64,000 bases of DNA, taken from the NCBI RefSeq assembly GCF_003334315.1, contig NZ_QOWR01000021.1. One strand, given 5' to 3'. Of the stretch, positions 34,049-35,383 are shown in pieces (within the stretch, counting starts at the first letter, position 1; the number at the start of each line of letters is the position of its first letter). The notes under the pieces were generated by a model. The model was not told the DNA's origin. It searched no databases and saw only the letters and a program-made list of their open reading frames with translations. The stretch comes from Escherichia coli (GTDB taxonomy: Bacteria; Pseudomonadota; Gammaproteobacteria; Enterobacterales; Enterobacteriaceae). A program made the position numbers and the translations under genes.

Positions 34049-35383
34049 TCATTCCTTGAAATCGTTTGCATCCAGCTCGTGTCGGGAAAGCAGTTTATAA
34101 AATTCTGTCCGGTTGCGCCCCGCCATTCTCGCCGCGTGGGTGACGTTGCCTTTGGTAATTTGCAGCAGCTTACGCAAATAGTTGAGTTCAAACTGATTAC
34201 GTGCCTCAACAAAGGTTGGCAGCGCCGTGTTTTCACCCTCCAGCGCCTGCTCTACTAATGCATCGCTAATAACCGGAGATGAGGTCAGCGCCACGCACTG
34301 TTCAATCACGTTGACCAACTGGCGCACATTACCCGGCCAGCTAGCGGTCATCAGGCGTTTCATCGCATCAGTGGAGAACGCGCGGACAAACGGTTTATGT
34401 CGCTCTGCCGCCTGGCGCAACAGGTGATTTGCCAGAAGCGGAATGTCTTCTGTGCGCTCTGCCAGAGCCGGAATTTTCAGGCTGACAACGTTGAGGCGGT
34501 AATAGAGATCTTCGCGGAATTCCCCGCGCGCCATCGCTTTTGGCAGATCACGGTGAGTGGCAGAAATAATCCGCACATTGATATCAATATCGCGGTTACT
34601 GCCCAGCGGGCGCACTTTACGCTCCTGCAACACGCGCAGCAGTTTGACCTGTAACGGCGCAGGCATATCGCCAATTTCATCGAGAAATAGCGTTCCGCCT
34701 TCCGCCGCCTGGAATAAACCTTCGCGATTGCTGACAGCGCCAGTAAACGCGCCACGCGCATGACCAAACAGCTCCGACTCCAGCAATTGCTCGGGCAATG
34801 CGCCACAGTTAATAGCAATAAATGGTTTGCTATTGCGCGGGCTGGCGTTGTGGATAGCCTGGGCGAAAATCTCTTTCCCGGTGCCGCTCTGGCCATTAAT
34901 CAAAACGCTGACGTCTGATTGCGCCACCAGCCGCGCCTGTTCCAGCAAACGCAGCATCAGCGGGCTGCGGGTGACAATTGCCTCGCGCCAGCGTTCATCG
35001 GTGGCTGGCGCGGATTGCTCCAGCGCATCGTCAATTGCCTGATATAGCGCATCTTTATCGACAGGCTTGGTGAGGAAACTAAAAACGCCCTGCTGTGTTG
35101 CAGCAACGGCATCGGGAATAGAACCATGCGCGGTAAGAATAATTACCGGCATTCCCGGCTGCACTTTCTGGATTTCAGCAAACAGCTGCATACCGTCCAT
35201 TTCATCCATCCGCAGGTCGCTGATAACTAAATCTACTTTTTCGCGATTCAGTACCCGTAATCCTTCAGCGCCACTTTCCGCCGTGACCACACTGTAGCCT
35301 TCGCTGGTCAGGCGCAGGCCAAGCAGTTTCAGCAATCCCGGATCGTCATCGACCAATAATAAATGCGCAGGTTTATGGCTCAT
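34049..35383 (-). CDS. glrR: Sigma-54-dependent response regulator GlrR (NtrC family)
   Basis: Receiver domain, AAA+ sigma-54 activator motif GAFTGA, Fis-type HTH; start trimmed to [14 protein letters not shown] (444 aa). Confidence 0.95.

What the first reader, a model, noticed from the sequence alone, without database searches (positions are those of the whole stretch)
35373..35383. 11-nt same-strand overlap between qseG and glrR
With the starts I chose, the glrR start codon lies 11 nt inside the end of qseG. This implies translational coupling within glrK-qseG-glrR, and together with the TTG start assigned to glrK suggests tuned low-level expression of the system.
Basis: seen in the sequence. 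Interest (0 to 1): 0.2.

Follow-up and report, generated by a model that had tools for sequence, protein, structure and literature searches.

The report
Annotated 11-base qseG–glrR gene overlap
The 11-base overlap between the end of qseG and the start of glrR in E. coli is real and already annotated; it is an ordinary compact operon junction that arose in Escherichia by loss of one base from the common four-base ATGA overlap.

Summary
Observation confirmed. On the minus strand, qseG ends with TAA at 35375..35373 and glrR starts with ATG at 35383..35381. They share ATGAGCCATAA (35373..35383).

RefSeq annotates exactly this in MG1655 and other E. coli. A published K-12 gene-pair table lists the pair as -11.

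In all 81 distinct Enterobacteriaceae loci the two genes overlap: 53 by 4 nt (ATGA), 14 by 14 nt, 7 by 1 nt, 6 by 11 nt, 1 by 8 nt. The 11-nt form occurs only in Escherichia. It is one base shorter than the ATGA form, so qseG runs on to a TAA formed by glrR codons 3-4. A GAGG/GGAG Shine-Dalgarno motif lies 5-20 nt upstream of the ATG in 81/81 loci, inside the otherwise variable QseG tail.

Translational coupling is plausible but not shown. No RNA structure hides the glrR start. -11 lies outside the -8..+6 window where reinitiation was measured. A published strain that replaces the overlap with a synthetic ribosome-binding site still works.

The glrK TTG start is annotated and conserved (TTG in 75/79 loci, GTG in 4, never ATG). 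That fits the published very low kinase level.

Verdict: already known, low interest.

The parts
35373..35383 (-). 11-nt qseG/glrR overlap ATGAGCCATAA
   Evidence: Sequence read. RefSeq coordinates. Listed as -11 in the K-12 gene-pair table of PMC10666635.
35381..35383 (-). glrR (qseF) start codon ATG
   Evidence: Gives the 444-aa product annotated in RefSeq. It aligns with the conserved N-terminus M(T/I)[13 protein letters not shown] in 81 loci. It is the qseF +1 position used in primer BG1306.
35373..35375 (-). qseG stop codon TAA, formed by the last base of glrR codon 3 (CAT) and the first two bases of codon 4 (AAA)
   Evidence: Species with a 14-nt overlap use the equivalent TAA in CGT AAA.
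35392..35396 (-). Shine-Dalgarno-like GAGGT inside qseG codons Glu-Val; 9 nt separate GAGG from the glrR ATG
   Evidence: GAGG or GGAG lies within -20..-5 of the ATG in 81 of 81 loci. The predicted anti-SD duplex energy is -5.6 to -11.7 kcal/mol.
35396..35398 (-). In-frame ATG 15 nt upstream of the glrR start (alternative start, rejected)
   Evidence: No Shine-Dalgarno motif precedes it. It is in frame only in Escherichia loci.
34049..35383 (-). glrR/qseF coding sequence: sigma-54-dependent response regulator, 444 aa
35373..36086 (-). qseG (yfhG) coding sequence: outer-membrane lipoprotein, 237 aa
   Evidence: Homologues carry Pfam PF13942.
36251..37678 (-). glrK/qseE coding sequence: histidine kinase, 475 aa, TTG start at 37678..37676
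   Evidence: TTG in 75 of 79 loci and GTG in 4. Primer BG1302 treats this TTG as the start.
37773..37920 (-). glmY small RNA gene upstream of the operon
   Evidence: Rfam RF00128, 146 bits, E = 1e-33.
33650..33988 (-). glnB, last gene of the qseEGF-glnB cluster, 60 nt after glrR
   Evidence: Called the 'qseEGFglnB operon' in PMC3903284.

Best explanation
This is the normal, annotated junction of the E. coli qseE(glrK)-qseG-qseF(glrR)-glnB operon.

Origin (shown by comparison). The ancestral Enterobacteriaceae junction was the common 4-nt ATGA stop/start overlap. In the Escherichia lineage one base was lost just before the start. This destroyed the old ATG/TGA pair and put qseG into the other reading frame, so QseG gains three residues (Asp-Glu-Pro) and stops at a TAA formed by glrR codons 3-4. 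The glrR start moved to the next codon, ATA becoming ATG, so GlrR is 444 aa rather than 445 aa.

Mechanism (inferred). glrR is translated from the AUG at 35383. Ribosomes are held there by the conserved GAGGU Shine-Dalgarno motif 9 nt upstream, which lies inside the dispensable C-terminal tail of QseG. Ribosomes finishing qseG terminate 8 nt past this AUG, so some can re-initiate on glrR, giving partial translational coupling. Because the site is unstructured and has its own Shine-Dalgarno motif, free ribosomes can also start there. The exact length of 11 nt has no function of its own.

Low expression of the system comes from the weak promoter and the conserved TTG start of the kinase gene.
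For: Anatomy and annotation.

Comparative evidence:
- 80 Enterobacteriaceae loci were fetched with a QseG profile.
- The junction classes are 53 loci at -4, 14 at -14, 7 at -1, 6 at -11 (Escherichia only) and 1 at -8. None has a gap.
- In the alignment, every -8, -11 and -14 locus is one base shorter than the -4 and -1 loci immediately before the ATG. Two Citrobacter loci and Intestinirhabdus carry the intermediate CCATGATG.
- A neighbour-joining tree of glrR built without the junction, analysed by Fitch parsimony, gives root state -4 and at least 12 changes of class. Escherichia forms one clade.

Shine-Dalgarno motif: present in 81 of 81 loci within an otherwise variable tail. In Salmonella, QseG residues 37-221 are enough to bind QseE (PMC12691602).

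No sequestering structure: fold z-score -0.46. The energy to open the glrR start region is 10.1 kcal/mol against 11.5 +/- 3.4 for shuffled sequences.

Coupling precedent: 4 of 5 tested E. coli overlapping pairs are coupled, and removing the Shine-Dalgarno motif reduces reinitiation (PMC6728339).

[quoted passage not shown] The start codon is TTG or GTG in 87 of 87 loci.
Against: - No initiation-site or ribosome-profiling data for glrR could be retrieved. The start rests on annotation, homology and the Shine-Dalgarno motif.
- Coupling itself is untested for this pair.
- -11 lies outside the -8..+6 window for which reinitiation was measured, and -8 is already weaker.
- QseF at 36 copies against QseG at 11 argues that reinitiation is not the main source of GlrR, though proteomics at these levels is imprecise.
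- The qseG-3xFLAG strain shows the overlap is not needed when a strong ribosome-binding site is supplied.
- In more distant Enterobacterales the genes are separated by 1 to 55 nt according to the gene calls.
Confidence: 0.55

Rival explanations
1. Strict termination-reinitiation. glrR is translated only by ribosomes that have just finished qseG, so the overlap fixes the QseG:GlrR ratio.
For: The overlap is kept in 81 of 81 Enterobacteriaceae loci. Thirteen of 14 tested native overlapping pairs, including 4 of 5 from E. coli, are strictly coupled.
Against: QseF is reported about threefold above QseG. No structure blocks independent initiation at the start site, whereas the strictly coupled E. 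coli pairs had such structures. The -11 spacing is outside the efficient window. QseG and GlrR are not subunits of one complex; the pair is marked 'CMPLX not'.
Confidence: 0.15
2. No functional coupling. glrR is translated independently from its own Shine-Dalgarno motif, and the overlap is a neutral by-product of a compact operon plus a one-base deletion.
For: The overlap length is labile, with at least 12 changes among 78 loci. The Shine-Dalgarno motif is conserved and the start site unstructured. The scar-separated qseG-3xFLAG strain is functional. Distant relatives have gaps of 1 to 55 nt. bioBF is a precedent for an uncoupled overlapping pair.
Against: None of at least 12 junction changes within Enterobacteriaceae produced a gap. 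Ribosomes terminating 8 nt past an AUG that has a Shine-Dalgarno motif are well placed to re-initiate (reviews).
Confidence: 0.25
3. The glrR start is mis-assigned. Translation begins at the in-frame ATG 15 nt upstream (35398), giving a 26-nt overlap, or at another site.
For: The glrR frame is open back to 35485 and holds an in-frame ATG at 35398. No direct initiation-site data were found.
Against: No Shine-Dalgarno motif precedes 35398, and that ATG is itself part of the motif for 35383. It is in frame only in Escherichia. The conserved N-terminus aligns at 35383 in all loci. RefSeq and the experimental laboratory both use 35383.
Confidence: 0.03

Closest known systems
Orthologous qseG-qseF junction of Salmonella, Citrobacter, Enterobacter and related genera (ATGA, -4)
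   Same: Same genes, same order (glmY-qseE-qseG-qseF-glnB), the same Shine-Dalgarno motif in the QseG tail and the same GlrR N-terminus.
   Different: E. coli has one base fewer before the start. qseG therefore reads three more codons and stops at a TAA inside glrR (-11 instead of -4), and GlrR is one residue shorter.
Overlapping co-directional gene pairs translated by termination-reinitiation (Huber et al. 2019, PMC6728339; 2023, PMC10666635; review PMC12548453)
   Same: Same-strand stop/start overlap within an operon, with a Shine-Dalgarno motif inside the upstream gene.
   Different: The studied and enriched spacings are -4, -1 and -8. This pair is at -11 and is untested. Its products do not form a complex with each other. 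The start region lacks the blocking RNA structure seen in the strictly coupled E. coli pairs.
Klebsiella pneumoniae nifL-nifA coupling (as summarised in PMC12548453)
   Same: A sensory partner gene followed by the gene of a sigma-54 enhancer-binding activator. There, the same ribosome was shown to translate both genes.
   Different: NifL binds NifA directly, so the ratio between them matters. QseG acts on the kinase QseE in the periplasm, not on GlrR. No such experiment exists for qseG-glrR.

Membership tests
E. coli qseE(glrK)-qseG-qseF(glrR)-glnB operon | Gene order glmY, kinase, lipoprotein (PF13942), sigma-54 response regulator, glnB on one strand, next to purL and hmp | tested here: met
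   The 4-kb region is 100% identical to strain CP53 and 99.5% identical to MG1655, with these genes annotated. glmY was found by Rfam.
E. coli qseE(glrK)-qseG-qseF(glrR)-glnB operon | Annotated qseG end and glrR start overlap by 11 nt | tested here: met
   Locus coordinates 3315..4028 and 4018..5352. Also 66..76 in a variant strain. Listed as -11 in a published K-12 table.
Translational coupling by termination-reinitiation | Co-directional genes on one transcript | tested here: met
   Same strand. No minus-strand promoter-like site was found inside qseG by the consensus scan, which has low sensitivity. Operon status comes from the literature.
Translational coupling by termination-reinitiation | Stop-start spacing within the window in which reinitiation was shown to be efficient (-8 to +6) | tested here: not met
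   The spacing is -11. PMC10666635 defines the window and reports that -8 is already less efficient.
Translational coupling by termination-reinitiation | Shine-Dalgarno motif for the downstream gene inside the upstream gene | tested here: met
   GAGGT at 35396..35392. GAGG or GGAG is present in 81 of 81 loci.
Translational coupling by termination-reinitiation | Downstream translation drops when upstream translation is stopped early | not testable with these tools
   This needs a reporter experiment. The only related published construct, qseG-3xFLAG with a scar ribosome-binding site, shows that function survives without the overlap.
Translational coupling by RNA unfolding | Downstream start region sequestered in a stable structure that the upstream ribosome opens | tested here: not met
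   The 131-nt fold has z = -0.46. Opening energy is 10.1 kcal/mol against 11.5 +/- 3.4 for shuffled sequences.
Gene with a conserved weak (non-AUG) start codon | Non-ATG start kept across species while neighbouring synonymous sites vary, with no conserved alternative ATG | tested here: met
   glrK starts with TTG in 75 of 79 loci and GTG in 4. Many loci have no upstream in-frame start candidate listed, and the ATG at codon 16 is replaced by Thr or Val in many loci. Eight of 8 distant loci have TTG or GTG at or next to the aligned start.

The most novel reading that the evidence does not exclude
The junction may be built to tolerate frameshifts. Repeated one-base losses (at least six independent lineages at -8, -11 or -14) all end at the first stop in that frame within glrR codons 2-5; for the -11 and -14 lineages this is the TAA formed by codon N (CGT or CAT) and the following AAA. 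Each switch of overlap class might then reset the QseG:GlrR translation ratio in a lineage-specific way. If so, overlap length would be an evolvable tuning knob for a three-component signalling system rather than neutral drift.
Probability: 0.08. Interest if true: 0.3.

Novelty: already known. Interest (0 to 1): 0.1.

Why it matters
It matters little. The overlap is part of the standard annotation and of a published gene-pair table.

The practical point is for anyone engineering this operon. The last 24 nt of qseG, window 35373..35396, carry the ribosome-binding site, the start codon and the first three codons of glrR. C-terminal tags on qseG or deletions of qseG must therefore re-supply a ribosome-binding site for glrR, as the published constructs do.

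The comparative result gives a tidy small example of how longer overlaps arise from ATGA. The junction always overlaps, the length changes repeatedly by single-base loss, and the kinase start is TTG or GTG in every locus examined. It does not open a new question.

Tried and rejected
- **Initiation-site data for glrR.** The retapamulin profiling paper has no supplements held, and its PMC version is not held. The INRI-seq supplements hold no glrR/b2554 entry, only an alternative site for yfhG. The N-terminomics supplements hold no glrR or qseG. The Li 2014 synthesis-rate paper is not held.
- **Count of -11 pairs in K-12.** The table I read lists only the +9..+12 pairs, and a text search across line breaks found nothing. 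I can therefore only cite the statement that spacings outside -8..+6 are at least tenfold rarer than -4.
- **RNA element at the junction.** Rfam at permissive threshold finds only glmY plus two sub-threshold hits in the glrK-qseG spacer. The fold is not different from shuffled sequences.
- **Internal promoter for glrR.** The consensus scan finds no minus-strand site. It also misses the known qseE promoter, so this is weak evidence.
- **Upstream ATG at 35398 as the start.** Rejected because it has no Shine-Dalgarno motif and is not conserved in frame.
- **Automatic overlap values of 58 and -42 nt for four loci.** These were artefacts of extending from a tblastn segment in the wrong frame. Three loci are plain ATGA. 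One, Leclercia adecarboxylata NCTC13032, has an apparent frameshift in the qseG tail.

Full report
**What is at the coordinates.** On the minus strand the window reads ...CCATGAGGTCACTCCTGATGAGCCATAAACCTGCG.... qseG ends ACT CCT GAT GAG CCA TAA, with its stop at 35375..35373. glrR begins ATG AGC CAT AAA CCT, with its start at 35383..35381. The two genes share ATGAGCCATAA, 35373..35383, 11 nt in different reading frames. The ORF table agrees.

**Identity of the locus.** The 4-kb region is 100% identical to E. coli strain CP53 and 99.5% identical to K-12 MG1655, and it is present in all 5426 complete E. coli genomes searched. RefSeq annotates four genes there:
- qseE/glrK, 475 aa;
- qseG, 237 aa;
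- glrR, 444 aa;
- glnB.

The annotated qseG and glrR coordinates overlap by 11 nt, and the qseE start corresponds to the TTG at window 37678. Rfam finds glmY just upstream at 37773..37920. A published table of all K-12 co-directional gene pairs lists qseG/glrR as -11, glrK/qseG as 164 and glrR/glnB as 60 (PMC10666635 supplement). A figure legend in PMC8745638 says that spacings or overlaps of this locus are drawn for E. coli O157:H7 and Salmonella. The feature is therefore already on record. The 46-nt junction is identical in 3959 genomes and 95-99% identical in 1461 more, and the overlap is still annotated in the one 1-mismatch variant I checked.

**Is 35383 the right start?** Several lines of evidence say yes.
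- The glrR frame is open back to 35485 and holds a second in-frame ATG at 35398.
- GAGGT at 35396..35392 precedes the ATG at 35383, with 9 nt between GAGG and the ATG. No Shine-Dalgarno motif precedes the ATG at 35398, which is itself part of the motif for 35383.
- Across 81 distinct Enterobacteriaceae loci the GlrR N-terminus M(T/I)[13 protein letters not shown] aligns at this position. The upstream ATG is in frame only in Escherichia.
- The Görke laboratory's primer for 'qseF +45 to +1' ends at this ATG.

I could not retrieve direct initiation-site data. The start therefore rests on annotation, homology and the Shine-Dalgarno motif.

**Comparative anatomy of the junction.** I built a profile of 19 QseG sequences and used it to fetch 80 loci from species-representative genomes. 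I located the qseG stop and the glrR start in each. Four automatic outliers were resolved by hand. Among 81 distinct loci the classes are:
- 53 with a 4-nt overlap (ATGA);
- 14 with a 14-nt overlap (for example CATGACGATCCGTAA in Klebsiella and Raoultella, and in some Enterobacter);
- 7 with a 1-nt overlap (TAATG or TGATG);
- 6 with an 11-nt overlap (the window's E. coli plus five other Escherichia genomes: four other species or unnamed lineages, and a divergent genome labelled E. coli);
- 1 with an 8-nt overlap (Kluyvera intermedia).

No locus has a gap. GAGG or GGAG lies between -20 and -5 of the ATG in 81 of 81 loci. The QseG tail that encodes it is otherwise variable in length and sequence. 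In Salmonella, residues 37-221 are enough for QseG to bind QseE (PMC12691602). The end of qseG thus doubles as the glrR ribosome-binding site.

In eight more distant homologous loci the gene calls give -4 three times, -11 once (independently, ATGCCGAATAG), and gaps of 1, 22, 23 and 55 nt. The overlap is therefore characteristic of Enterobacteriaceae, not universal.

**Origin of the 11-nt form.** In an alignment of representative junctions, every -8, -11 and -14 locus is exactly one base shorter than the -4 and -1 loci just before the ATG.
- Salmonella reads CCATGATAAGCCGTAAA.
- Two Citrobacter loci (sp. Awk 4 and sp. NCU1) and Intestinirhabdus read CCATGATGAGCCGC, with two adjacent ATGs.
- E. 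coli reads CCTGATGAGCCATAAA.

Loss of the A removes the first ATG and takes TGA out of the qseG frame. qseG then runs on through Asp-Glu-Pro to the TAA made by glrR codons CAT AAA. glrR starts at the second ATG, which explains why it is 444 aa rather than 445 aa.

In this frame the possible stops fall 8, 11 or 14 nt after the A of the ATG, and those are exactly the classes seen. A shift in the other direction would fuse QseG to GlrR, and no such locus was seen. A neighbour-joining tree of glrR, built without the junction and analysed by Fitch parsimony, gives -4 at the root and at least 12 class changes among 78 loci. Escherichia and the Klebsiella/Raoultella group each form one clade, and several separate -14 events occur in Enterobacter and relatives. 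The number 11 is thus an accident of where the next stop lay, not a conserved value.

**How it most likely works.** These points are shown:
- the anatomy, the conserved Shine-Dalgarno motif and the conserved overlap;
- the absence of a structure that would hide the start. The 131-nt fold has z = -0.46. The energy to open -18..+12 is 10.1 kcal/mol against 11.5 +/- 3.4 for shuffled sequences, similar to the qseG and glnB starts.

The mechanism is inferred. Ribosomes finishing qseG release 8 nt past an AUG that has a Shine-Dalgarno motif, so some re-initiate. Free 30S subunits can also bind.

The literature frames the odds.
- Four of five native E. coli overlapping pairs were strictly coupled. 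The Shine-Dalgarno motif mattered in four of five. Predicted RNA structures at or near the start region of three of the pairs (hyfHI, astDB, ydbH/ynbE) could explain the lack of independent initiation there (PMC6728339).
- Reinitiation efficiency falls steeply with distance. -8 is less efficient than -4 or -1, and spacings outside -8..+6 are at least tenfold rarer than -4 (PMC10666635; review PMC12548453).

Two published observations bear directly on this pair.
- QseG is reported at 11 molecules per cell and QseF at 36, with QseE undetected (PMC6075780). This is hard to reconcile with reinitiation as the only source of GlrR.
- In the chromosomal qseG-3xFLAG strain, primer BG1306 places qseF +1 directly after the cassette's priming site. 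After curing, qseF is therefore preceded by the scar's AGGAGGATATTCAT sequence and no longer overlaps qseG. The strain nevertheless kept full glmY activation.

I therefore favour partial coupling plus independent initiation (about 0.55), over no coupling (0.25) and strict coupling (0.15).

**The TTG start and 'tuned low expression'.** The TTG at 37678..37676 is the annotated start. The experimental laboratory changed it to ATG for an expression plasmid (primer BG1302). [quoted passage not shown] That placement excludes the in-frame TTGs 60-63 nt further up, which lie in the glmY terminator.

Across 79 Enterobacteriaceae loci the aligned start is TTG in 75 and GTG in 4, never ATG, while neighbouring synonymous positions vary. 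The ATG at codon 16 is not conserved. All eight distant loci also have TTG or GTG at or next to the aligned start. Together with low reporter activity and undetectable QseE, and QseG in excess over QseE in Salmonella, this supports deliberately low kinase synthesis.

**Comparison with what is known, and novelty.** The junction works like the well-described class of overlapping co-directional pairs. Its nearest relative is its own ATGA orthologue in Salmonella, Citrobacter and Enterobacter.
- It fails one criterion of the experimentally defined termination-reinitiation class (spacing within -8..+6).
- It fails the criterion of the RNA-unfolding class (no sequestering structure).
- The decisive criterion, dependence on upstream translation, cannot be tested here.

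The overlap is already annotated and tabulated, so it is already known. The small additions from this work are the one-base-loss origin, the repeated class switching and the conserved non-ATG kinase start.

**Limits.**
- The 81 loci are related, so counts such as 81 of 81 overstate independent evidence.
- The tree is a quick neighbour-joining tree on one gene.
- Gene starts in the distant loci are automatic calls.
- The copy numbers come from one proteomics study, cited second-hand.

Noticed in passing
window 36096..36242 (minus strand), between glrK and qseG: The 164-nt glrK-qseG spacer is mostly a 147-nt insertion. It has 14-nt imperfect terminal inverted repeats (36097-36110 and 36235-36248) and TAA on both sides. 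It is present in E. coli, two unnamed Escherichia species and E. whittamii. It is absent in E. albertii, a divergent genome labelled E. coli and Salmonella, where the empty site AATGCTAAGTCTGG leaves a 17-nt spacer. Similar sequence occurs at a median of 5 places (1-8) per E. coli genome and is unannotated in RefSeq. It looks like a miniature transposable element. It may be the 'RSA' repeat of the original K-12 genome paper; that name is from memory only.
   Followed up: partly
window 36226..36243 (minus strand): The 5' end of that insertion, immediately after the glrK stop, forms a terminator-like hairpin, AGCCTATCCTATCAGGCT followed by ATTTTATTT. It could attenuate read-through into qseG-glrR in E. 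coli but not in species that lack the insertion. Not tested.
   Followed up: no
window 37676..37678; loci L003-L090: The glrK/qseE start codon is TTG in 75 of 79 Enterobacteriaceae loci and GTG in 4, and TTG or GTG in 8 of 8 distant loci. It is never ATG. A conserved GAGA(G)-like motif lies about 7-9 nt upstream.
   Followed up: yes
window 36086..36095; PMC9825163 supplement: The qseG start is less certain than the glrR start. A GTG lies two codons upstream of the annotated ATG (ORF list). Cell-free initiation profiling reports an in-frame CTG at -9 for yfhG. Many other genera encode a 7-residue N-terminal extension, MNLSLVS.
   Followed up: partly
loci L083-L090 (distant Enterobacterales): In distant relatives the kinase and lipoprotein genes overlap by 4 or 11 nt, or are separated by 2 to 24 nt. 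The lipoprotein and regulator genes can be separated by up to 55 nt. This is the opposite packing pattern to E. coli.
   Followed up: partly
proteins P0002 and P0126 (public assemblies of E. coli-like genomes): Two in-frame deletion fusions exist in public assemblies. One joins the GlrK N-terminal part (up to about residue 188) to full-length QseG (411 aa). The other joins QseG residues 1-146 to GlrR from about residue 135 onward (458 aa), with the join at a shared Trp-Arg. Both would inactivate the system in those isolates.
   Followed up: no
locus L031 (Leclercia adecarboxylata NCTC13032), about 40-90 nt upstream of the glrR ATG: The qseG tail changes reading frame and stops 42 nt before the glrR ATG, while the usual ...QEDGKP-stop ATGA ending is still readable in another frame. 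This is either a real frameshift or an assembly error.
   Followed up: no
window 35380 (the base after the glrR ATG); all 81 loci: The base after the glrR ATG is A in 81 of 81 loci, so ATGA is preserved even in Escherichia and Klebsiella, where TGA is no longer the qseG stop. This may simply reflect second-codon preference (Ser, Thr or Ile).
   Followed up: no
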